Source: Escherichia coli
Lineage (GTDB): Bacteria; Pseudomonadota; Gammaproteobacteria; Enterobacterales; Enterobacteriaceae
Length of the DNA: 64,000 nucleotides
Strand: one strand, 5' to 3'
Assembly (NCBI RefSeq): GCF_003790525.1
Contig: NZ_CP033635.1
This document shows, piece after piece, positions 9,985 to 19,837 of this stretch. Position 1 is the first letter of the stretch; every line of letters begins with the position of its first letter. Both the position numbers and the translations under genes were made by a program. Under the pieces are notes generated by a model that did no database searches, was not told the origin of the DNA, and saw only the letters and a list, made by a program, of their open reading frames with translations.

Positions 9985-12459
9985 ATGAGACAGGAATGTA
10001 TACAAGCGGTCCAGCAGGCGGCGCAGCGCACGTTAACGGCGCGAGAAATACAGAACATTGAAGACCGCATTTATCGAAATATGCGCTCCATTGCTCGTGA
10101 TGACCCGATGTCGTGGCGACAACTTTCCGAATCAGAACGGTTGTATCGTGCAGCACAATTGGCATCTGAAGAATTACAGCGAGAAGCGGCATTAAAGAAA
10201 CGTCGTGTGGCCCTCACTATAGCCGCACGTCAGAGATTGGATAAATTTATCAATAGCTATCAAGGGGCTGATGGGAAACTTGGCGCTCTTAACCGTACTA
10301 TTGCTTTTAATGCAGACGGTAAATCGAATTTCCTCTCTGTTGAATCCAGAACAAAAGCCACCCGTGATTATGCATTGAGTCAATTGCAGGAGGCATTCGA
10401 AGCAGTTGATCCTCGCTTTTTTGGTCTGTTTGAAGATGAAGCGGGCGTACGTGACCTGGTATATGAAATGCGGGGGCAAAATACTGGCAATGCTAAAGCA
10501 AGAAAAGGTGCTAAGGCGTGGAGAGAAGTTACAGAGCTGCTGCGCCGCCGGTTTAATGATGCTGGTGGGGACATTGGCTATCTCGAAAACTGGGGGATCC
10601 CTCAACATCATTCTATGGAAAAGGTTGGGGCGGTATCAAAGGATAAGTGGGTTAGCGATGTTATAGGTAAGCTGGATCGCAAATATTATACCCGAGCCGA
10701 TGGACAACTGATGAACGATGCCGAGTTGTCTGAATTTCTTGGAGAGGCTTATAACACGATCGCTACTGGTGGGCTGAATAAGCTTACTGATACCGGAATG
10801 CGAATTTCCGGCGCACGTGCTAACCGTGGTAATGCATCACGACAGATACATTTCAAAGATGCAGATTCCTATCTGCAATATCAGCAACTTTATGGCGATC
10901 GCTCTCTATGGGAAATCATGGTCGGTCACCTGGAAGGTATCAGTAAAGATATTGCGCTGGTGGAAACATATGGCCCAAACCCCGATCATGTTTTCCGCTC
11001 CCTTCTTGATCAGGTTAAGGCAGAAACGGCAACAGCTAACCCGAGTAAAACCGGTAGCGTCGAGCGTCTGGCGAACAAAACAGAGAACTTGTACAACTTT
11101 ATTTCCGGAAAAACACAGCCTGTAGCGAATCCGCACATCGCGCGATGGTCTGACAATATCCGCAACTGGCTGGTTGCCAGCAGACTCGGATCCGCGTTGC
11201 TGTCATCGTTCTCTGATCTTGGAACCATGTATCTGTCTGCGAAGGTTACCAACCTTCCAATGAACCAGTTATTTCGCAACCAGCTTGAAGCTATGGACCC
11301 AACGAACCGTACAGAACTTGCGCGGGCGCGCCGCGCTGGCCTGGCGATGGAATCTCTACTTGGCAGCGTTAACCGCTGGGCGATGGATAATATGGGGCCG
11401 TCTGTGTCTCGTTGGGCGGCAACGGCGGTAATGCGTGCCAGTGGGCTTACAGCATGGTCAGATGCGCACAAGCGCGCCTATGGCGTAACCATGATGGGAA
11501 GCCTGGGAGAAGTAGTGTCACGGACACCAGACCTTCGTAGCCTCGATGACTCTGATTTTCGTATCCTGAAAAGCAAAGGGATTACTGACACAGACTGGAG
11601 CGTATGGAAGCTGGCGCAACAGGAGGACTGGGGGAACGGTAATAATACGATGCTGACACCGGAAAGCATTATGCGTATCCCTGATTCAGCAGTTAAACAT
11701 CTTGGTGAGCCTGAACGCGTGAAATTTGAGGCAATGCGTAAACTGCTCGGTGCCGTAACTGAAGAAGTTGATATGGCTGTTATTACACCGGGCGCACGTG
11801 AACAGATGTTCGTAGGGTCTGGTCTTCAGCGTGGAACATGGAAAGGTGAATTAACGAGAAGTGTTTTCCTGTTTAAATCGTTCCCTATCTCGGTAGTTAT
11901 GCGTCACTGGCATAGAGCTATGGGGATGCCGTCTGCTGGTGGGCGTGCGGCATATATAGCAACGTTTTTAGCAAGCACAACCATGCTTGGTGCTCTTTCC
12001 ATGCAGATTACTGATCTTATTAATGGGAGAAATCCAAAAGAAATGACCGGTGACAACATGGTTAAATTCTGGATAAATGCATTTTTAAAAGGTGGTGGGG
12101 CAGGGTTGTATGGTGATTTTCTTTTCTCTGACCACACCAGGTACGGGAGCGGCGCACTAGCGTCGATGCTTGGCCCGGTAGCTGGTCTGGTTGATGACGT
12201 AGTGAAGATTGCTCAGGGCATACCGTTAAATGCTGTGGAAGGGAAGAATGAGCAGACTGGTGGTGATCTGGTTAAGCTTGGGAAAGGTTTGATGCCTGGT
12301 GCGAATCTCTGGTACTTGAAGGCGGCTCTCGATCACATGATCTTTAATCAGATGCAGGAGTATTTTTCACCAGGCTATTTGCGTAAAATGGAGCAACGTT
12401 CGAAGAAAGAGTTTAACCAGACATACTGGTGGCGACCTCAGGATGTCACTCCGCAATAA
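9985..12459 (+). CDS. Internal virion / ejection protein (gp16-like position), 824 aa
   Basis: Last large gene of the structural operon; AGAGG RBS upstream. Confidence 0.5.
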   Translation: MRQECIQAVQQAAQRTLTAREIQNIEDRIYRNMRSIARDDPMSWRQLSESERLYRAAQLASEELQREAALKKRRVALTIAARQRLDKFINSYQGADGKLGALNRTIAFNADGKSNFLSVESRTKATRDYALSQLQEAFEAVDPRFFGLFEDEAGVRDLVYEMRGQNTGNAKARKGAKAWREVTELLRRRFNDAGGDIGYLENWGIPQHHSMEKVGAVSKDKWVSDVIGKLDRKYYTRADGQLMNDAELSEFLGEAYNTIATGGLNKLTDTGMRISGARANRGNASRQIHFKDADSYLQYQQLYGDRSLWEIMVGHLEGISKDIALVETYGPNPDHVFRSLLDQVKAETATANPSKTGSVERLANKTENLYNFISGKTQPVANPHIARWSDNIRNWLVASRLGSALLSSFSDLGTMYLSAKVTNLPMNQLFRNQLEAMDPTNRTELARARRAGLAMESLLGSVNRWAMDNMGPSVSRWAATAVMRASGLTAWSDAHKRAYGVTMMGSLGEVVSRTPDLRSLDDSDFRILKSKGITDTDWSVWKLAQQEDWGNGNNTMLTPESIMRIPDSAVKHLGEPERVKFEAMRKLLGAVTEEVDMAVITPGAREQMFVGSGLQRGTWKGELTRSVFLFKSFPISVVMRHWHRAMGMPSAGGRAAYIATFLASTTMLGALSMQITDLINGRNPKEMTGDNMVKFWINAFLKGGGAGLYGDFLFSDHTRYGSGALASMLGPVAGLVDDVVKIAQGIPLNAVEGKNEQTGGDLVKLGKGLMPGANLWYLKAALDHMIFNQMQEYFSPGYLRKMEQRSKKEFNQTYWWRPQDVTPQ

Positions 12460-12468
12460 GGAACAACA

Positions 12469-12882
12469 ATGAAGGAATTATTGCTGTTATCGGTATTTTT
12501 GATATCCGCTTGCTCGACATCCTATGATGTTTATGACGGTGTTGATAAGGCATATTGCGACAAAGTTAAAATGGATTTTTCTCTTGCCAAGACGGCGAAG
12601 GATAGTTGTATTGATCACTACGTCAAGACTTATACCAAGCCAGCCTCATCGGCATCTGATATTGCTGAAGGTGCTGTGTTTGAGTGTAACAAGGTGATAT
12701 CCATCGCAGCGAGTTCTTCATACGATGCTGCTGTATGTGCAATGGCTGAAAGAAACGGCATGTCAGTGCAAAAAATTAATAGCATGATAAGCAGTAATGA
12801 CGAAGCCAAAATAAGAACTGATATCAGCTCGGTGAAAAAAGATGCCATGAACAGAGTTGTAAAATATCAGTCATCTTTATAA
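12469..12882 (+). CDS. Prophage lipoprotein (signal peptide with lipobox L-I-S-A-C), 137 aa, AT-rich gene
   Basis: N-terminus MKELLLLSVFLISAC read directly; AAGGA RBS; sits at the start of the accessory island. Confidence 0.65.
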   Translation: MKELLLLSVFLISACSTSYDVYDGVDKAYCDKVKMDFSLAKTAKDSCIDHYVKTYTKPASSASDIAEGAVFECNKVISIAASSSYDAAVCAMAERNGMSVQKINSMISSNDEAKIRTDISSVKKDAMNRVVKYQSSL

Positions 12883-12897
12883 GTCGTGACATGTCAC

Positions 12898-12922
12898 AGG
12901 CCGCTTTCGCGGCCTTGTTTTT
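12898..12922 (+). terminator. Intrinsic terminator of the structural operon / lipoprotein gene
   Basis: AGGCCGC-TTTC-GCGGCCT hairpin followed by TGTTTTT. Confidence 0.6.
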
Positions 12923-13082
12923 AACGAATGCCACCGCCACCCGGGCGGGAATCCGCAGAACGCCCACCGCAGCGGGAGCCGTCAGCAGCAGTGTCGCTGT
13001 CGTGCTGACAACGACCGGCAAAGGCCTGAGTTGAAGCTACCAGAGACAACAAAACGAACAGTGCAGCAAATGCTTTTTTCAT
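12921..13082 (-). CDS. Candidate small secreted peptide (53 aa, Sec signal MKKAFAALFVLLSLVASTQAFA, two Cys)
   Basis: Internal ATG of the 77-aa ORF; convincing signal peptide but weak RBS; possible TTGACG / TATAGA promoter just upstream. Confidence 0.3.
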   Translation of the reverse strand: MKKAFAALFVLLSLVASTQAFAGRCQHDSDTAADGSRCGGRSADSRPGGGGIR

Positions 13083-13154
13083 TGTGAAATTTCCATCTAT
13101 AAGCCACCTCAATGTGGCGTCAATGAGTGTAGCACTGACTTTTGTTTCGCCCAC

Positions 13155-13176
13155 AAAAAAGCCCGCAGCGCGGGCT
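13155..13176 (-). terminator. Intrinsic terminator of the cargo operon
   Basis: AGCCCGC-GCU-GCGGGCU hairpin followed by six U on the - strand; overlaps the stop codon at 13175. Confidence 0.6.
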
Positions 13177-13615
13177 ATTCTTCTTCATCATTAAAAAGCG
13201 GATTGTTGTTTCCATCTGATGAAAGGAAAGGTATGTGTTCTCTTGAAAATCCAACAATGACAATTTCATTATCATTTTTTGCATAATGAATGCATTCATT
13301 AGAATGCCTTCCGCCAGGGTTGAAATTTAAGTTAATGGTATAATTCTTAAATGTGTTTGGATACCATGTTGGCCCACAATGATAATGCCAATAATTCTCT
13401 TGCTCATAATTGTCTGAGCCGGGAATTTTATCATGGTTATCATCAACCCACGAGGGCTTGTTTTTTCCAACAAGCGCCCTTCCATTGGCAACATCCTCTA
13501 AAAAACTTTGTATGATTTTTATTTCATCATCAGTAAGGAAAGGTCCGTCTACAGCGAAAGGGGTGTTGCTTTCCCCATGTAGAAAACTATTAGATATTCT
13601 AATGTTAAACTTCAA
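13175..13615 (-). CDS. Hypothetical cargo protein, about 146 aa, low GC, Asn-rich, no recognised domain
   Basis: Probable TTG start at 13615 with AGGAG RBS 6 nt upstream, 20 nt after the stop of the 55-aa ORF; ORF track shows a longer frame from 13756 that overlaps the upstream gene. Confidence 0.5.
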   Translation of the reverse strand: MKFNIRISNSFLHGESNTPFAVDGPFLTDDEIKIIQSFLEDVANGRALVGKNKPSWVDDNHDKIPGSDNYEQENYWHYHCGPTWYPNTFKNYTINLNFNPGGRHSNECIHYAKNDNEIVIVGFSREHIPFLSSDGNNNPLFNDEEE

Positions 13616-13635
13616 GGAAAACTCCTGATGTGCTT

Positions 13636-13803
13636 CTATTTGGAGCGAAATGCCGCCTTGAAGTCGCTGAAAGATGTTCCTGTCTGGTAAACCATATCCT
13701 TGTCGCGCTCTTTGCTTGCGCGGCCAAGCATAACTTTTCCAATGACATCCCAGCATTGCTTGGCTTGTTCATTGTGCTGAGTACGATTTTTCAACGCTGT
13801 CAT
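13636..13803 (-). CDS. Small protein (55 aa), first gene of the cargo operon; possible regulator or antitoxin-like partner
   Basis: ATG with AGGAGG RBS 6 nt upstream, placed immediately downstream of promoter P_A; translated by hand. Confidence 0.5.
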   Translation of the reverse strand: MTALKNRTQHNEQAKQCWDVIGKVMLGRASKERDKDMVYQTGTSFSDFKAAFRSK

Positions 13804-13815
13804 ATCGCGCCTCCT

Positions 13816-13858
13816 TTACCTTTAAGGTAATAGTACGCTATTCACCCACAGTCTGCAA
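13816..13858 (-). promoter_or_regulatory. Promoter P_A (-35 TTGCAG at 13853-13858, 17-bp spacer, -10 TACTAT at 13830-13835) with operator copy A (TTACC-TTTAA-GGTAA, 13816..13830)
   Basis: Hexamers and the 15-bp palindrome read directly; the operator abuts the -10 and the RBS. Confidence 0.55.
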
Positions 13859-13867
13859 TCTGTACAG

Positions 13868-13894
13868 AATTATTTAAAGGCACATCCCTGTGCC
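13868..13894 (-). terminator. Terminator-like hairpin after the antirepressor-like gene (GGCACA-GGGA-TGTGCC then TTTAAATAATT)
   Basis: Hairpin read directly; T-rich but interrupted tail. Confidence 0.45.
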
Positions 13895-13902
13895 GCCGCC
13901 CG

Positions 13903-14589
13903 TCAGAAGAACCCAGCCTTGTCGTTGATGTACTCCGCGTGGGTCTGGATATCACGCAGGCATTTGCTCACACCAACAATGTAGCAGAACATGGTGGTCA
14001 GCTCCGCCGCCGCGCCCGATACGTCGTGCCCGTCTTCCTGTAACTGGTTCAGCAGATTCATCAGCAGTGAGTTCTCCGTCAGGCCGAGAACACCAGACGG
14101 AGAATGAATCAGGCTGCGGTAGCCGGGCTTCAGTGGGGCACTGTAGGTTTTGTTCTCTATCTTCATTGCCTGCATCACTGCTGATGCTGTGGCGTTGGCT
14201 ACCTGGTCGGCAACTATCTTTATGCGTTCTTCCTGCGGGAGCGAGTTTTTAATGTAACTTCCGGTGCGGCGGATCTGAGGAAGAACCTCACCTGTAACCC
14301 ATTTACGAAAGCGGTAGGGGATAGTGCCTGGTGTCACTGCGTCGCGGCAGCGGAGGATCAGTGTGTAGAGGCCTGACTCGTTGATAATATTGGTTTCACC
14401 TTGACGGCCTAAGTTAAATTTAGCCCTTTCATCATCATCAAGAGATTTTATTGACATAGTGGGGTTTGTCAGTTGAAGAGCTTTAATAACGTCTTTGGCA
14501 ACAAACCAAGGATTTCCATCAATAACAATGGCTCGAATGGTGGCTTCTGATTCAAAATGAAAAACAGATGGGGTTACGTTAGCAGTCAT
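13903..14589 (-). CDS. Antirepressor-like protein with N-terminal BRO-N / AntA-type domain, 228 aa
   Basis: Motifs FHFE...IR..IDG.PWFVAKDV and ESGLY.LI read in the translation (BRO-N family, from memory); start set at ATG 14589 with AAGGTGA RBS rather than ORF-track 14742, which has no RBS and a Gly/Cys-rich non-protein-like extension. Confidence 0.8.
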   Translation of the reverse strand: MTANVTPSVFHFESEATIRAIVIDGNPWFVAKDVIKALQLTNPTMSIKSLDDDERAKFNLGRQGETNIINESGLYTLILRCRDAVTPGTIPYRFRKWVTGEVLPQIRRTGSYIKNSLPQEERIKIVADQVANATASAVMQAMKIENKTYSAPLKPGYRSLIHSPSGVLGLTENSLLMNLLNQLQEDGHDVSGAAAELTTMFCYIVGVSKCLRDIQTHAEYINDKAGFF

Positions 14590-14742
14590 AGTGATCACCT
14601 TTGTAGTTAGGTTAATCACCACTACCGACGCCAATCGGTTGGTGGTGAACTGTGCAGGGTTGGCGTAACCGGCTACAAAGGACCCGGCGCACCTTTCGGT
14701 GCCCCCACACAGCCCACCATAGAATAGGTGCGCTTTACACAT

Positions 14743-14761
14743 AAAAAAACCGCTTATGCGG
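14743..14761 (-). terminator. Short intrinsic terminator or attenuator in the leader of the antirepressor-like gene (CCGC-AUAA-GCGG followed by seven U)
   Basis: Read on the - strand; stem is only 4-5 bp, so call is tentative. Confidence 0.4.
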
Positions 14762-14855
14762 CATATGTGCCTCTGTAGTAACCCGGGACGCCAATCCCGG
14801 CACTGGATTTTGCCAGTGCCCGATTACTATGGCACAAGAGGAGTGCGATGTAAAT

Positions 14856-14898
14856 TTACCGAAAAGGTAATAATAAACACTCTACTTGGTAATTGCAA
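14856..14898 (-). promoter_or_regulatory. Promoter P_B (-35 TTGCAA at 14893-14898, 17-bp spacer, -10 TATTAT at 14870-14875) with operator copy B (TTACC-GAAAA-GGTAA, 14856..14870)
   Basis: Near-consensus sigma70 hexamers with exact 17-bp spacing; palindrome overlaps the -10 and start site. Confidence 0.6.
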
Positions 14899-14901
14899 AC
14901 C

Positions 14902-15159
14902 TTATCTGGTTTGTTTTCGTAATTGTTCGGCACAATAGTCGAGATGTGTTTGCAGATCCCGCATAGACATCTGTGAGCTGGTGACGTAGTTAATCAGTGC
15001 AGTCAGTTCGGCAAGTGGGCCATCGACATTAAATCCATCCTTATCGAGATCCCGGAGTAATTTCATCAAGTGCGATCCCTCCACCAGTGACCTGACGCCT
15101 CCCGGCGTGTGAATCCTTTCGGTAAATCCGTCTTCCAGTGGATAGTGATACTGCTGCAT
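14902..15159 (-). CDS. Small protein (85 aa) paralogous to the C-terminal domain of the adjacent antirepressor-like protein; candidate SOS-controlled small antirepressor
   Basis: By-eye alignment with the last ~70 aa of the 228-aa protein shows about 40 percent identity; ATG 15159 with GGAG RBS; LexA box directly upstream. Confidence 0.6.
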   Translation of the reverse strand: MQQYHYPLEDGFTERIHTPGGVRSLVEGSHLMKLLRDLDKDGFNVDGPLAELTALINYVTSSQMSMRDLQTHLDYCAEQLRKQTR

Positions 15160-15178
15160 CTTATCTTCTCCATGCAAT

Positions 15179-15198
15179 AACTGTATATTTATACAGTA
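15179..15198. promoter_or_regulatory. LexA (SOS) box AACTGTATATTTATACAGTA
   Basis: 18 of 20 positions match the consensus TACTGTATATATATACAGTA including both CTGT and ACAG arms; located immediately upstream of the 85-aa gene. Confidence 0.65.
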
Positions 15199-15235
15199 TC
15201 AAATAATTTGTTTGCTATCCAGCACGTTTTGCAAA

Positions 15236-15250
15236 TTACCCGAAAGGTAA
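15236..15250. promoter_or_regulatory. Operator copy C (TTACC-CGAAA-GGTAA) in the divergent region between the 85-aa gene and the tailspike gene, next to a TTGCAA hexamer (15229-15234)
   Basis: Third copy of the 15-bp palindrome; promoter partner hexamers not clearly assignable. Confidence 0.45.
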
Positions 15251-15354
15251 TATCTATTCGTATTTACAGTCTTTCTATCCATATGTGGTTTTTCAGGTAA
15301 TAGAATAACCAGATATGCGGCGCAACGGGTGCTGCGACTATCTGGAGATTTAAC

Positions 15355-17544
15355 ATGACGGTCTCAACCGAAGTTGACCACAACGAATACACCGGTAACG
15401 GCGTTACGACATCATTTCCGTATACCTTCCGTATTTTCAAAAAAACCGACCTGGTTGTTCAGGTGTCTGACCTGAACGGGAACGTAACAGAATTGGTTCT
15501 GGATACCGGTTATAAGGTAACTGGAGCGGGCACTTATAGTGGCGGTGAAGTGGTTCTCCAGTCGCCGCTTGCTGCTGGCTGGCGAATTACGATAGAGCGT
15601 GTGCTTGATGTGGTGCAGGAGACTGATCTTCGCAATCAGGGAAAATTTTTCCCCGAAGTTCATGAAGATGCATTTGACTACCTGACGATGCTGATCCAGC
15701 GATGTTTTGGGTGGTTCAGACGTGCATTGATGAAACCATCTTTGCTTGCAAAATATTACGATGCAAAGCAAAACAAAATTTCTAACCTTGCAGATCCATC
15801 ATTTGAGCAGGACGCTGTAAATAATCGCTCAATGCGTAATTATGTCGATGCTGCAATCGCCGGGGTTGTTGGTGGTTTTGGTTGGTTTATACCGTCAGGA
15901 AGCGGGGCAAGACAACGAACATTTCAAAGCAAAATGAGGGATATAATTTCTCCTTGTGATTACGAAGATAATATTTTTATGATTAAGGAGTTGATATCCA
16001 AAGGCAAAAATGCCGCTGTTTTTAACTCATATTATACTTTTGTTATTACTGTTGGCGAATGGGGTGATTTCCCTACACTCAAAGATGCAATCATTGCAGC
16101 CCAGTCAATGAGACCTATGTGGGATGGTGGTAATGCTTTCTGCGAAATAAGAATTAAGACCGGGCATATTATCAACTATCAAATTGAATTCAGTTCAGGT
16201 GTTGATTTGTCTTGGATTAAAATAACATCAGAAGACTCAGTGGTTTTCTCTGACACTCGTTTGTTTACTAAAATCGTTAGAACGTATTACGAATACAAGT
16301 ATTTATTTTACATTTGCGATGCAGCAAAAAGTCCTGTATTTGCTATTCAGATCGAAGAAAATAGAGATGATAGCGATGTTTGTGCATTTATTGTAACTCA
16401 AAAAGCTGAACTTAATTTCTATCCGTATTCAGGTGCTCGAAAGTTCTACGTTGGAATTCATGGTAGTTTTGGTGCAAAAATTAGTGCATATCATACCGGA
16501 TGTGCTCCTGATGAGGAAAGTGTTGCTGCATATATGCCAGAAGGGTATTACGTATGTGATTTTTCTTATAGCAGATACTCTTCCCTGCAACTGGTAAATA
16601 ATGTCAAGGCATCAATGCCTGTAAGCAAGTTTGAACGGTGCACAGAGAGTACGGTTGCGTCAGTTAATTGTATTTATAATGTTAAAGCAGATTTTCAGGG
16701 GTCAAGTGCAAGCTATTGTTATATAGGATGGAATGTAAGAGATGGTTCAAATGTTAATATACGCGACCATAAAACTATACATTGCTCATATCGTGGATTA
16801 ACCTGCATTCATACAGCATATGTTGATGCAAGACGACATGACGTTGAAGAAAGTGATGCAGAAACAAGTGGTAAAGTCCTTGAACCAAATATTGAAAAAG
16901 GTTTTTATGGATGTGCACTTGGTGTGCGTATTGATGGTGCGGGTTGCGTTGATGTTGCTGGTAATGATATGCGCAATTGTGGAACAGCCGTTAATGCAGA
17001 CACTGGTGCTGTTATTTCAGGAAAGGCTGTAGATATCTCAGGGGCTGAGCTGGGATTTGATTGCCATGCAGGAGCATCTGTTAATTTTCCAAGGCTATGG
17101 GGTACAGATATAAAAAAATTAATGCACCTCCAAGATGGTGTAAGGTTTAACTCTAATATTTGTCATGTATTTGGTGCAAATCCCACAAAAGATATTAGAT
17201 GGATTGATGTAGAGAGATCTGAAGCTTCTTTTATGAATGCAACGCTGGATGCAGATTCAGGATTTATTGCCGACTGTGGTAGTAGGATAACCATTGAAGG
17301 AAGTAAAGTTAAAAACCAAACAATAAGAAGTTTTTTTGGATCATATGTGGCTATAAATAATACTGTTGCTGACAGAACTTATTCAGATATAGCCGATGTT
17401 CCGCAGTTGACTATTAGTGGAGGATCTTTTATTTCTGCTACAGGATATTCTAATTCTGACTCCAGCCCTCTGAGGTTGAGCACAACACGAAATACACTTG
17501 GCGTTGGAGGAGCCATATTTTCAACCAATGGGGAAGTTTCATGA
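15355..17544 (+). CDS. Tailspike / tail fiber protein, 729 aa: conserved N-terminal virion-attachment domain plus divergent C-terminal receptor-binding part
   Basis: N-terminus carries the YTGNGVTT.F.Y.F pattern typical of podovirus tail fiber or tailspike adapters (from memory); C-terminal two thirds are AT-rich and Cys-rich; GGAG RBS 7 nt upstream. Confidence 0.7.
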   Translation: MTVSTEVDHNEYTGNGVTTSFPYTFRIFKKTDLVVQVSDLNGNVTELVLDTGYKVTGAGTYSGGEVVLQSPLAAGWRITIERVLDVVQETDLRNQGKFFPEVHEDAFDYLTMLIQRCFGWFRRALMKPSLLAKYYDAKQNKISNLADPSFEQDAVNNRSMRNYVDAAIAGVVGGFGWFIPSGSGARQRTFQSKMRDIISPCDYEDNIFMIKELISKGKNAAVFNSYYTFVITVGEWGDFPTLKDAIIAAQSMRPMWDGGNAFCEIRIKTGHIINYQIEFSSGVDLSWIKITSEDSVVFSDTRLFTKIVRTYYEYKYLFYICDAAKSPVFAIQIEENRDDSDVCAFIVTQKAELNFYPYSGARKFYVGIHGSFGAKISAYHTGCAPDEESVAAYMPEGYYVCDFSYSRYSSLQLVNNVKASMPVSKFERCTESTVASVNCIYNVKADFQGSSASYCYIGWNVRDGSNVNIRDHKTIHCSYRGLTCIHTAYVDARRHDVEESDAETSGKVLEPNIEKGFYGCALGVRIDGAGCVDVAGNDMRNCGTAVNADTGAVISGKAVDISGAELGFDCHAGASVNFPRLWGTDIKKLMHLQDGVRFNSNICHVFGANPTKDIRWIDVERSEASFMNATLDADSGFIADCGSRITIEGSKVKNQTIRSFFGSYVAINNTVADRTYSDIADVPQLTISGGSFISATGYSNSDSSPLRLSTTRNTLGVGGAIFSTNGEVS

Positions 17545-18739: not shown

Positions 18740-19358
18740 ACAATTCCAGCGAGCTGCTGGTATCAGCGAGGCACTGGCCGCACGCTGGTTCTCGCATATA
18801 ACTTCTGCGATGAAAGAGTTTGGTATCAGCAAACCAGAAGATCAGGCTATGTTTATTGCTCAGGTCGGGCATGAGTCTGGAGGCTTCACCCGGTTGCAGG
18901 AGAATTTCAACTACAGCGTCAGCGGACTGGCTAACTTTGTTCGGGCTGGGCGTCTCACTCAGGGACAGGCCAACGCATTGGGGCGACGTGCAGGCGAACC
19001 ACCATTGCCACTTGAGCGCCAGAGAGCGATTGCCAATCTGGTGTACAGCAAACGCATGGGGAACAATGCCCCTGGTGATGGCTGGAACTACCGTGGGCGC
19101 GGGCTTATCCAGGTTACCGGTTTGAATAACTATCGTGACTGTGGAAACGGTCTTAAGGTTGACCTGCTGGAGAGTCCTGAACTGCTGGCGCAGGACGAAT
19201 ACGCGGCTCGTAGCGCGGCGTGGTTCTTTGCCAGCAAAGGATGCATGAAGTATACCGGCGATATTGCACGTGTAACTCTGATTATCAATGGTGGCCGGAA
19301 CGGCATCGACGACCGGCGCGCGCGATACATCAATGCCAGTAAGGTGCTGGCGGTATGA
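18729..19358 (+). CDS. Endolysin, glycoside hydrolase family 19 (chitinase-like) type
   Basis: Motifs [18 protein letters not shown] and NYRD read in the translation, recalled as GH19-type phage lysozyme signatures; position between holin and Rz. Confidence 0.8.
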
Positions 19359-19837
19359 TCTGGGCATTCGTAAAAGCATACTGGAAACAGTTGGTTATCA
19401 TGGCGATGCTTGCTGTTCTGGTCATATCAGGAGTTGTAGCCTGGAATGCACACGGTAGTCGTCAGTACGACGCCGGGTATGCGCAGGCGGAAGAAGACCG
19501 CAAAGACGAAGAAGACAAAGTTCGTCAGTACTACGAACAGGAGAAAGTGACCAATGAACGTGAAGCGCAGCAAAGAATCGACCAGGCGCGCAATGATGCT
19601 CTTGATGCTGCCGCTCGCGCTGGCAGGTTGCAGCAACAACTCTTTGCCATCCGTGAGCAGCTCAGGCAGTATAACGCCATTGTCGGCGCTGGGACGTCAG
19701 CCGCAGACACCGGAGTTTTGCTTGCCGACGTGCTCAGCAAATCTCTCGAGAGAAACAGACAACTGGCAGAGTATGCTGACCGGGCAGCCGAAGCCGGAAG
19801 AGTCTGCGAAAAACAGTACGACACCCTGACCAGATAG
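19355..19837 (+). CDS. Rz-like i-spanin (N-terminal transmembrane helix, coiled-coil periplasmic domain)
   Basis: ATGA overlap with endolysin stop; typical Rz architecture. Confidence 0.7.
19554..19829 (+). CDS. Rz1-like o-spanin lipoprotein, fully embedded in the Rz gene in the +1 frame
   Basis: Signal peptide ending in lipobox LAGC, Pro-rich mature part, embedded arrangement as in lambda Rz/Rz1 (established knowledge). Confidence 0.65.
   Translation: MNVKRSKESTRRAMMLLMLPLALAGCSNNSLPSVSSSGSITPLSALGRQPQTPEFCLPTCSANLSRETDNWQSMLTGQPKPEESAKNSTTP

What the first reader, a model, noticed from the sequence alone, without database searches (positions are those of the whole stretch)
12469..12882. 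Prophage lipoprotein at the head of the accessory island, candidate superinfection-exclusion factor
Seen: lipobox signal peptide, four Cys, AT-rich coding sequence, own RBS, located right after the last ejection-protein gene. Established knowledge: prophage lipoproteins such as Cor and Llp block receptors, and P22 sieA occupies the comparable position. Inference only for function.
Basis: partly seen in the sequence, partly recalled or inferred. Interest (0 to 1): 0.5.

Follow-up and report, generated by a model that had tools for sequence, protein, structure and literature searches.

The report
Uncharacterised prophage lipoprotein in exclusion-type slot
A real but uncharacterised small outer-membrane lipoprotein gene fills a swappable one-gene slot behind the DNA-ejection genes of a phiV10/epsilon15-like E. 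coli prophage; it is a reasonable, untested candidate for blocking incoming phages.

Summary
ORF 12469-12882 (+) encodes a 137-aa protein with a rule-conforming lipobox (Cys15, Ser at +2), four further Cys, 39.4% GC against 48% for the prophage, an AAGGA ribosome-binding site and an intrinsic terminator at 12898-12915. The prophage is phiV10/epsilon15-like (Uetakevirus), not P22-like.

The gene fills an exact cassette (12464-12884) between a shared RBS and a shared terminator. Related prophages carry small membrane proteins of unknown function there instead. The layout of ejection genes, slot, C4-RNA/antirepressor region and tailspike mirrors P22 gene 16 / sieA / immI / gene 9.

The family (phrog_8691) is tiny. 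It has no Pfam, NCBIfam, PADLOC or PDB relative. All members keep the lipobox and a 17 / 25-26 / 17 Cys spacing, which fits two antiparallel helices stapled by two disulfides. Distant members sit in Morganellaceae defence-rich islands and on 2.4-4 kb plasmids.

Best reading: a periplasm-facing outer-membrane binding protein that acts as an envelope-level exclusion or immunity factor. Its target is unknown and nothing was tested functionally.

There is no homology to Cor, Llp, SieA, Spackle, Ltp or LprI. No promoter was seen for lysogenic expression. Interest is moderate.

The parts
12469..12882 (+). Lipoprotein gene: 137-aa precursor, 123-aa mature protein starting at lipid-modified Cys15. Member of phrog_8691.
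   Evidence: ORF. phrog_8691 match E 1.6e-91 over the full length. PROSITE lipobox rule met, Ser at +2, Cys at 15/30/47/73/90. AF2 model pLDDT 85, all-helical.
12458..12462 (+). Ribosome-binding site AAGGA, overlapping the TAA stop of the upstream gene, 6 nt before the ATG. It is shared by all alleles of the slot.
   Evidence: Sequence. All alternative slot genes also start 9 nt after the stop. Homology to other Uetakeviruses runs up to 12462/12463.
12464..12884 (+). Variable cassette: the stretch with no DNA homology to Uetakevirus genomes that carry other slot alleles. It coincides with the ORF.
   Evidence: blastn of window 12000-15600 against L002, L003, L031, L048 and L066: homology stops at 12459-12463 and resumes at 12885/12886.
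12898..12925 (+). Intrinsic terminator: a 7-bp stem with 6 G-C pairs, a 4-nt loop and the tail TGTTTTTAAC. It closes the late structural operon and is shared by all slot alleles.
   Evidence: Terminator scan. RNA fold -17.7 kcal/mol, z = -3.2. A terminator is annotated at the same place in phiV10. Homology resumes at 12885.
9985..12459 (+). Upstream neighbour: the last internal-virion (ejection-type) protein, 824 aa. The lipoprotein gene is packed against its 3' end, and no promoter-like site was found on the + strand in the last 470 nt of it.
   Evidence: phrog_684 'virion structural protein', E 0. Series of T7 gp14-like, SLT-containing and large core proteins. Promoter scan.

Best explanation
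The gene is an accessory, horizontally swapped single-gene cassette.

**How the protein is made (inferred from sequence rules).** The product is exported by Sec, lipid-modified at Cys15 and, because residue +2 is Ser, sorted by Lol to the inner leaflet of the outer membrane.

**What the protein looks like (predicted).** The mature ~13-kDa domain is a compact helical bundle. Two long antiparallel helices would be stapled by two DsbA-formed disulfides, C30-C90 and C47-C73. It has no enzyme-like features, so it most likely works by binding another envelope component.

**What it most likely does (inferred from context).** It is an envelope-level exclusion or immunity factor. It would interfere, from the periplasmic side of the outer membrane, with the entry machinery of an incoming phage. 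The target could be the trans-envelope conduit built by ejection proteins or an outer-membrane component that conduit needs.

**When it is made.** Its place at the end of the late operon means it is made at least during lytic growth. Whether it is also made in the lysogen is unknown.

**Shown versus inferred.** Shown: the gene, the lipobox, the invariant Cys pattern, the exact cassette boundaries, the alternative slot occupants and the carriage on mobile elements. Inferred: localisation, disulfide pairing, the binding mode, and the target and phenotype.
For: - **Real, constrained gene.** Full-length phrog_8691 match. Homologues at 55%, 44% and 26-28% identity keep the lipobox, Ser/Thr/Gly at +2 and a Cys spacing of 17 / 25-26 / 17, with C1+C4 equal to C2+C3. 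With the predicted helices 24-55 and 74-96, this fits an antiparallel hairpin held by two disulfides, which implies an oxidising, periplasmic location.
- **Exact cassette.** Homology to other Uetakeviruses stops at 12462/3 and resumes at 12885, between a shared RBS and a shared terminator.
- **Same slot, other membrane proteins.** phiV10 has a 46-aa two-TM protein there. Others have a 57-aa two-TM protein plus a 98-aa multi-TM protein, or a 62-aa protein. In 5,426 complete E. coli genomes the counts are 218, 53 and 21 for the 57+98 pair, the 46-aa protein and the lipoprotein.
- **Synteny parallels P22.** The order is ejection genes, slot, C4/isrK RNA plus Ant region, tailspike. P22 sieA lies between genes 16 and 9, and its escape mutants map to the ejection proteins gp16 and gp20 (PMC10461980).
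- **Independence from the phage.** Distant members lie in Morganellaceae integrase/AlpA/DUF3987/YfjJ islands beside SIR2-HerA, dGTPase-like, Gabija-like and restriction-modification genes. One is among only two CDS on 2.4-kb Col3M plasmids. The gene therefore seems to act without phage partners.
- **Not a spanin and not paired.** The o-spanin is encoded separately at 19554-19829. The neighbouring 53-aa gene occurs with any slot allele.
Against: - No functional data exist, and no paper was found on this protein.
- The gene starts 9 nt after the late ejection gene, and no promoter-like site was found on the + strand in the 470 nt scanned upstream. In Cedecea the gap is 2 nt. Prophage-state expression, the usual hallmark of superinfection exclusion, is therefore not evident.
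- The defence-island association is weak. The gene sits next to the conserved backbone and IS remnants of those islands rather than inside a defined system.
- No isolated phage among 50,697 records carries it.
Confidence: 0.45

Rival explanations
1. It is an immunity or inhibitor protein against a non-phage envelope attack. It would be a periplasmic lipoprotein that binds and neutralises a peptidoglycan-degrading or other periplasm-acting toxin, such as a T6SS effector, a bacteriocin or a lysozyme/lytic transglycosylase. In style it would resemble LprI/DUF1311, Tai/Tsi-type immunity proteins or T4 Spackle.
For: - Apart from the protein itself, Foldseek against AFDB50 gave only two hits below E 1e-3. 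One is a Serratia protein labelled DUF1311 (TM 0.72), and weaker DUF1311-labelled hits follow.
- DUF1311/LprI proteins are also four-Cys helical exported proteins. E. coli YecT, confirmed here as PF07007, shares the 17-residue spacing of the first Cys pair.
- Carriage on 2.4-kb plasmids and in islands of Proteus, Providencia and Morganella would suit an orphan immunity gene.
- An SLT-domain ejection protein is encoded three genes upstream.
Against: - A profile-profile comparison of the family with a YecT/LprI alignment gives probability 0.7%.
- Pfam LprI is not among even the weak hits.
- The Pfam Spackle match has E 0.42 and covers the signal peptide.
- No toxin gene is adjacent in any context examined.
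Confidence: 0.17
2. It serves the phage's own lytic cycle, made late with the virion proteins. It might tune lysis or envelope integrity. It might instead prevent released progeny from wasting their DNA on debris of the lysed cell, as T5 Llp does for FhuA. In that case it would not protect the lysogen.
For: - The gene is the last one of the late structural operon. It has a 9-nt gap, no upstream promoter-like site and the operon terminator immediately after it.
- The same tight packing behind the ejection gene is seen in Cedecea (2 nt), with P0018 (38 nt) and with P0022.
Against: - The slot is dispensable and filled by unrelated proteins in most relatives.
- Holins, endolysin, i-spanin and o-spanin are all encoded elsewhere.
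- Homologues on plasmids and islands work without any phage lytic genes.
Confidence: 0.15
3. It is a host-fitness or virulence moron unrelated to phage defence. It would be an outer-membrane lipoprotein that changes serum resistance, adhesion or envelope stress tolerance, as lambda Bor or plasmid TraT do.
For: - It is AT-rich cargo in a prophage.
- It occurs in human, porcine, avian and canine isolates.
- It is carried on several kinds of mobile element.
Against: - There is no similarity to Bor, TraT or Lom families in Pfam or PHROGs.
- There is no own promoter of the kind typical of such morons.
- It is rare, in 21 of 5,426 complete E. coli genomes, with no evident pathotype link.
Confidence: 0.08

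Closest known systems
P22 SieA (superinfection exclusion A)
   Same: - Both are encoded between the last ejection-protein gene and the antirepressor (immI-type) region and tailspike of a short-tailed temperate phage (PMC10461980).
- Both are a single accessory envelope protein, absent from many relatives and present as non-homologous or highly divergent types.
- SieA acts on the ejection-protein conduit, which is the mechanism proposed here.
   Different: - SieA is a polytopic inner-membrane protein with its own promoter PsieA. This protein is a lipobox lipoprotein predicted for the outer membrane, with no promoter-like site upstream.
- There is no sequence relation.
- The host phage type differs: P22-like versus epsilon15/phiV10-like.
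T5 Llp and phi80/N15 Cor (receptor-blocking lipoproteins)
   Same: Both are small phage-encoded outer-membrane lipoproteins with disulfide-forming Cys that act by binding rather than catalysis.
   Different: - No match to these families appears in the PHROGs or Pfam scans.
- This protein is about twice the size and predicted all-helical.
- Llp and Cor target FhuA, the receptor of their own phages. epsilon15-like phages bind O-antigen, and no outer-membrane protein receptor is implicated here.
Ltp of Streptococcus phage TP-J34
   Same: Both are prophage-encoded lipoproteins of about 140 aa with a helical extracytoplasmic domain. Ltp blocks DNA injection by binding a tail protein that forms the entry channel (cited in PMC10461980).
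   Different: - Ltp belongs to a Gram-positive host and is anchored on the cytoplasmic membrane.
- No fold match to any solved structure was found.
LprI / DUF1311 (PF07007) lysozyme-inhibitor lipoprotein family
   Same: - Both are exported helical proteins with four conserved Cys.
- The first Cys pair is 17 residues apart in E. coli YecT as well.
- One AFDB50 Foldseek hit labelled DUF1311 has TM 0.72.
   Different: - hhalign probability is 0.7%, and there is no Pfam hit.
- The second Cys pair spacing is 24 in YecT against 17 here, and C1+C4 does not equal C2+C3 in YecT.
- In this family both Cys of each pair lie on one long helix.
T4 Spackle (periplasmic inhibitor of the tail lysozyme gp5)
   Same: Both are small exported helical phage proteins made during infection. 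Spackle excludes by neutralising a cell-wall-degrading entry protein. An SLT-domain ejection protein is encoded nearby here.
   Different: The Pfam T4_Spackle match has E 0.42 and covers mainly the signal peptide. There is no structural match in the PDB.

Membership tests
Bacterial lipoprotein (Lgt/LspA/Lnt substrate) | N-terminal signal peptide ending in a lipobox [LVI][ASTVI][GAS]C (PROSITE PS51257 rule: K/R in the first 7 residues, an uncharged stretch, Cys at position 15-35) | tested here: met
   MKELLLLSVFLISAC meets the rule, as do all 10 family members checked. One member also gives a weak Pfam LPAM_1 hit.
Bacterial lipoprotein (Lgt/LspA/Lnt substrate) | Actual lipid modification and outer-membrane localisation (no Asp at +2) | not testable with these tools
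   Residue +2 is Ser, and Ser/Thr/Gly in homologues. By the +2 rule this predicts Lol sorting to the outer membrane. Globomycin sensitivity and fractionation would be needed to show it.
phrog_8691 (uncharacterised phage protein family) | Full-length significant match to the family profile | tested here: met
   E 1.6e-91 over residues 1-137 of 137. The distant members P0018, P0020, P0022 and P0025 also hit it, with E from 2e-33 to 2.5e-8.
Cor / Llp receptor-blocking lipoproteins | Sequence or fold homology to Cor or Llp | tested here: not met
   No such family appears among the PHROGs hits or Pfam hits. No solved-structure match was found.
Cor / Llp receptor-blocking lipoproteins | Blocks the outer-membrane receptor (FhuA) used by the encoding phage | not testable with these tools
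   This needs plating and adsorption assays. The phage type here is O-antigen-specific (tailspike gene at 15355-17544).
P22 SieA | Polytopic inner-membrane protein homologous to SieA types A-C | tested here: not met
   The only hydrophobic segment is the cleaved signal peptide. The mature part is a soluble helical bundle. No PHROGs or Pfam link was found.
P22 SieA | Gene located between the last ejection-protein gene and the tailspike gene of a temperate podophage | tested here: met
   compared with PMC10461980 section 13. This is a positional analogy only.
P22 SieA | Expressed from the prophage by its own promoter | tested here: not met
   The intergenic gap is 9 nt. No promoter-like site lies on the + strand between 12000 and 12468 at the scan's threshold. 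A consensus scan cannot exclude a weak or non-sigma-70 promoter.
LprI / DUF1311 (PF07007) | Significant match to the Pfam profile or to a family alignment | tested here: not met
   There is no PF07007 hit for any of the 8 members. hhalign against the YecT alignment gives probability 0.7%. YecT itself hits PF07007 at 1.4e-17.
LprI / DUF1311 (PF07007) | Shared fold | tested here: inconclusive
   One AFDB50 hit labelled DUF1311 has TM 0.72 and E 3e-5. No solved structure of any kind matches.
T4 Spackle (PF25676) | Significant match to the Pfam profile | tested here: not met
   E 0.42 over residues 1-56, which include the signal peptide.
Known anti-phage defence systems (PADLOC-DB v2) | Match to any of 5,027 defence-protein models | tested here: not met
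   The window protein, P0020 and P0018 match no family. P0021 and P0022 give only chance-level hits, E 0.006 and 0.015.
o-spanin (Rz1-like) | Short proline-rich lipoprotein encoded in or next to the i-spanin gene of the lysis cassette | tested here: not met
   A separate embedded lipoprotein ORF (LALAGC lipobox) lies at 19554-19829 inside the DUF2514 gene. The finding's protein is 137 aa, helical, has one Pro and lies 6.7 kb from the lysis genes.

The most novel reading that the evidence does not exclude
phrog_8691 would be a new, self-sufficient family of envelope-level anti-phage proteins. A disulfide-stapled helical lipoprotein on the inner face of the outer membrane would jam the trans-periplasmic ejection conduit of short-tailed phages from the outer-membrane side. 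It would be the outer-membrane counterpart of inner-membrane SieA. The post-ejection-gene slot of epsilon15-like prophages would then be a dedicated hot spot where alternative exclusion cassettes (lipoprotein, two-TM and multi-TM proteins) are exchanged. The same module would be reused by defence islands and 2.4-kb plasmids in Morganellaceae.
Probability: 0.25. Interest if true: 0.6.

Novelty: new variant of a known kind. Interest (0 to 1): 0.4.

Why it matters
**If the exclusion reading is right.**
- It would add an unrelated protein family to the short list of phage-encoded lipoproteins that block infection at the envelope.
- It would define a cassette slot in epsilon15/phiV10-like prophages, present in about 10% of complete E. 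coli genomes, where entry-blocking genes are exchanged.
- phiV10-type phages are used for O157 detection and typing, and prophage-borne exclusion shapes the host range of therapeutic phages.
- A single 414-bp gene with a clear plasmid-expression assay is an easy target.

**If it is not.** It remains one more uncharacterised prophage moron.

Tried and rejected
- **Known families by sequence.** Pfam, NCBIfam, PADLOC and PDB sequences gave nothing significant. The weak hits to Linker_histone, T4_Spackle, the CC_3452 family and phrog_3392 are at chance level.
- **LprI/DUF1311 lead.** I fetched E. coli YecT, confirmed it as PF07007 and built an alignment. hhalign gave probability 0.7%, so I rejected membership.
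- **Isolated phages.** Megablast and tblastn of the protein and of two distant homologues against 50,697 phage records found nothing.
- **Wider family search.** The search for related loci with the family alignment failed because no stretch was conserved enough.
- **Selection analysis.** The E. coli alleles are too alike (0-3 nt differences among the full-length alleles), and dS against Cedecea is saturated.
- **Partner gene.** The 65-69-aa ORFs upstream of the plasmid and island homologues are unrelated to each other; one is an IS fragment. The convergent 53-aa gene occurs with every slot allele. No partner was found.
- **Spanin role.** Rejected, because the o-spanin is encoded elsewhere.
- **Literature.** Nothing was found on this protein or its accession.
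- **Plasmid partner gene.** The 146-aa partner on the 2.4-kb plasmid has no Pfam or NCBIfam match, and no Rfam RNA was found on that plasmid.

Full report
**1. The observation**

The ORF at 12469..12882 (+) exists and encodes 137 aa.
- Its N-terminus MKELLLLSVFLISAC meets the PROSITE PS51257 lipobox rule, with the modified Cys at position 15 and Ser at +2.
- There are five Cys in all, at 15, 30, 47, 73 and 90. That is four in the mature protein.
- The gene is 39.4% GC. The three upstream ejection-protein genes are 48.9-51.4%, and the prophage part of the window is 48.4%.
- AAGGA lies 6 nt before the ATG and overlaps the stop codon of the upstream gene; the gap is 9 nt.
- A strong intrinsic terminator follows at 12898-12915: seven pairs, six of them G-C, then a T-run, -17.7 kcal/mol, z = -3.2.

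**2. The setting**

The window is E. coli chromosome. It matches strains MS 198-1, CEA601S and WWCOL-236 at 100% over 901 bases.

The prophage is not P22-like. Its annotation shows a Bbp16-type cement protein, an epsilon15 gp10-type staple, a T7 gp14-like core protein and an SLT-containing core protein. Its closest phages are HEMP4, phiv142-3 and phiV10, genus Uetakevirus. The prophage abuts yfgI/yfgH/pdeF/ppx.

The upstream gene 9985..12459 (824 aa, phrog_684) is the last of the internal-virion or ejection-type proteins.

Downstream on the minus strand lie:
- a 53-aa secreted protein;
- a 146-aa low-GC ORF;
- a 55-aa ORF;
- a BRO-N/Ant gene preceded by C4 antisense RNA and isrK;
- an epsilon15 gp19-like ORF.

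The tailspike gene follows at 15355.

The order of ejection genes, slot, antirepressor region and tailspike mirrors P22 16 / sieA / immI / 9. In P22-like prophages sieA always lies between genes 16 and 9 (PMC10461980).

**3. The gene is a cassette in a variable slot**

DNA homology to other Uetakeviruses ends at 12462/12463 and resumes at 12885. The swapped unit is therefore exactly the ORF, between a shared RBS and the shared operon terminator.

Among 80 related IMG/VR loci the first gene after the ejection gene starts 9 nt after the stop in nearly all cases (the 62-aa allele and two very short ORFs are the exceptions). It is one of the following:
- a 57-aa two-TM protein, followed by a 98-aa multi-TM protein;
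- this lipoprotein, in 21 loci, two of them truncated to 120 aa;
- the 46-aa two-TM protein of phiV10;
- a 62-aa protein.

All of these are of unknown function in PHROGs.

In 5,426 complete E. coli genomes:

| Feature | Genomes |
|---|---|
| 901-bp probe 12300-13200 (ejection-gene 3' end, lipoprotein gene and the flank shared by several alleles) | about 559 |
| 57 + 98 membrane pair | 218 |
| 46-aa allele | 53 |
| Lipoprotein | 21, at 98.3% nt identity or more |

The lipoprotein is thus a minority allele of a slot that otherwise holds small membrane proteins.

**4. The protein family**

It matches phrog_8691 over its whole length and nothing significant in Pfam, NCBIfam or PADLOC.

A search of 5.8 billion clusters found 17 proteins, from Escherichia, Enterobacter, Citrobacter and Cedecea. 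An exhaustive HMMER search of 1.84 billion representatives found only 7 with E up to 1e-3. A profile search added Morganellaceae members.

All ten members examined keep the lipobox, a non-Asp +2 residue and a Cys spacing of 17 / 25-26 / 17, with C1+C4 equal to C2+C3.

AlphaFold2 gives a confident all-helical model, pLDDT 85, with helices 24-55, 62-72, 74-96, 100-106, 109-115 and 119-136. Each 17-residue Cys pair lies on one long helix. The equal sums mean that C30 faces C90 and C47 faces C73 if the two helices run antiparallel. That would be a hairpin stapled by two disulfides. This is my inference; I could not inspect the coordinates.

**5. Testing the DUF1311/LprI lead**

LprI-family proteins are four-Cys helical exported proteins described as lysozyme inhibitors. 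I fetched E. coli YecT, confirmed it as PF07007 (E 1.4e-17) and built an alignment of it and relatives at about 60% identity. Comparing profiles gave probability 0.7%.

YecT shares the 17-residue first Cys spacing, but its second pair is 24 residues apart. Membership is therefore not supported. A very remote structural kinship cannot be excluded.

**6. Where else the family occurs**

- P0016 (Cedecea, 55% identity), P0018 (44%) and P0022 (26%) sit in the same place in epsilon15-like prophages. P0022 follows an extra 191-aa secreted protein.
- P0020 and P0024 (Providencia, Morganella) lie in integrase/AlpA/DUF3987/YfjJ integrative islands. Their variable cargo includes SIR2-HerA, an HD/dGTPase-like gene, an OLD-ATPase plus UvrD pair (Gabija-like), type I and III restriction-modification systems and BrxR. 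There the gene sits beside IS remnants near the island backbone.
- P0025 is on 4,044-bp Proteus plasmids and is one of only two CDS on 2.4-kb Col3M plasmids of Providencia.

The gene is therefore mobile cargo of three kinds of element and appears to function on its own.

**7. Mechanism**

What is shown is the anatomy. What follows is inference.
- The lipobox and Ser at +2 predict an outer-membrane lipoprotein facing the periplasm.
- The invariant Cys pattern predicts DsbA-dependent disulfides.
- The small helical domain without catalytic motifs predicts action by binding.

Taken together, the slot, its exclusively membrane-protein alleles, the SieA-like synteny and the carriage on defence-rich islands and minimal plasmids point the same way. 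The most likely role is envelope-level exclusion of incoming phage DNA. It could target the ejection conduit or an outer-membrane component the conduit needs.

Against this, the gene is tightly packed behind the late ejection gene. No promoter-like site was found on the + strand in the 470 nt scanned upstream. It is thus certainly a late gene and only possibly a lysogen-expressed one. P22 sieA has its own promoter but is also up-regulated on induction.

Rival readings:
- a periplasmic inhibitor or immunity protein against a non-phage attack, or against cell-wall hydrolases;
- a lytic-cycle helper;
- a Bor/TraT-like fitness factor.

It is not the o-spanin, which is encoded at 19554-19829.

**8. 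A possible link to the ejection protein**

The 824-aa protein has a two-haplotype patch at residues 608-714, with 22-24 substitutions. All 21 lipoprotein-bearing loci carry the window's haplotype. The two-TM alleles mostly carry the other, with about six exceptions.

This may be simple linkage over 0.3-0.7 kb, or co-adaptation. The 80 loci were chosen by similarity to the query and are not independent, so I draw no conclusion.

**9. Verdict**

It is a real, uncharacterised, mobile lipoprotein in a slot positionally equivalent to sieA. It is unrelated to any known exclusion protein, and no function has been tested.

It is best described as a new variant of a known kind: a prophage-encoded envelope protein that is a candidate for exclusion. 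Interest is moderate. A specialist would not be surprised by the category. The cassette slot, the disulfide-stapled fold without solved relatives and the carriage on 2.4-kb plasmids still make it a clean, cheap experimental target.

Noticed in passing
window 14638-14724 (-) and 14743-14819 (-): C4 antisense RNA (RF01695, 79.5 bits) and isrK (RF01394, 74.7 bits) lie just upstream of the BRO-N/Ant gene at 13903-14589 (-). This is a P1/P7 immI-type antirepressor control module. It sits between the ejection genes and the tailspike, as immI does in P22.
   Followed up: partly
window 12921-13082 (-): A 53-aa protein with a signal peptide (MKKAFAALFVLLSLVASTQAFA...) matches phrog_14503, 'membrane associated protein', a moron. 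It is convergent with the lipoprotein gene. It occurs with other slot alleles too, so it is not a partner.
   Followed up: partly
window 13175-13615 (-): A 146-aa ORF of 35.6% GC matches phrog_5954 and has its own terminator at 13176-13160. It has no NCBIfam or PADLOC match. In other strains this position holds a YafO-family toxin, a DUF4760 protein or a membrane-anchored protein, so it is a second variable slot.
   Followed up: partly
window 9985-12459 (+), residues 608-714 of the 824-aa protein: There is a two-haplotype patch of 22-24 amino-acid substitutions in the last ejection-type protein. All 21 lipoprotein-bearing IMG/VR loci carry the window's haplotype, and most loci with two-TM alleles carry the other, with about six exceptions. 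Whether this is linkage or co-adaptation is not resolved.
   Followed up: partly
L031 4910-5392; L003 4793-4933; L002 4920-5276: Alternative occupants of the same slot are a 57-aa two-TM protein plus a 98-aa multi-TM protein (218 of 5,426 E. coli genomes) and the 46-aa two-TM protein phiV10 p21 (53 genomes). All are of unknown function.
   Followed up: yes
L105 (NZ_CP135992.1, 2,428 bp) 263-691; L019 (NZ_CP066834.1, 4,044 bp) 365-793; L016: A 28%-identical homologue is one of only two CDS on a 2.4-kb Col3M plasmid of Providencia. It also occurs on 4-kb Proteus plasmids, and on a small metagenomic contig with repeated units beside a pentapeptide-repeat (Qnr-like) gene. The 146-aa partner has no family match.
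   Followed up: partly
L008-L010 and L100-L104, gene at 10001-10420: Providencia and Morganella homologues sit in integrase/AlpA/DUF3987/YfjJ islands. The variable cargo of these islands includes SIR2-HerA, an HD/dGTPase-like gene, an OLD-ATPase plus UvrD pair, type I and III restriction-modification systems, BrxR and a ThiF-ThiF-UvrA-like trio.
   Followed up: partly
window 19554-19829 (+): An embedded o-spanin ORF with lipobox LALAGC lies inside the DUF2514 (i-spanin) gene at 19355-19837. The lysis cassette is therefore complete without the finding's lipoprotein.
   Followed up: yes
L001 17583-18440 versus window 14877-14901; L001 23699-24157: The MS 198-1 copy of the prophage carries an extra 729-bp gene between the Ant region and the gp19-like ORF. 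It also has an IS200C after the lysis genes. Both are absent from the window.
   Followed up: no
L038 and L040, slot gene: These two loci carry a truncated 120-aa allele of the lipoprotein, with a premature stop and 7 nt differences. The gene may be decaying in some lineages.
   Followed up: no
L012 9366-9941 and L013 1133-1708: In the distant epsilon15-like phage that carries P0022, a 191-aa Cys-rich protein with a signal peptide (phrog_11983, unknown function) lies between the ejection gene and the lipoprotein gene. That slot therefore holds two exported proteins.
   Followed up: no
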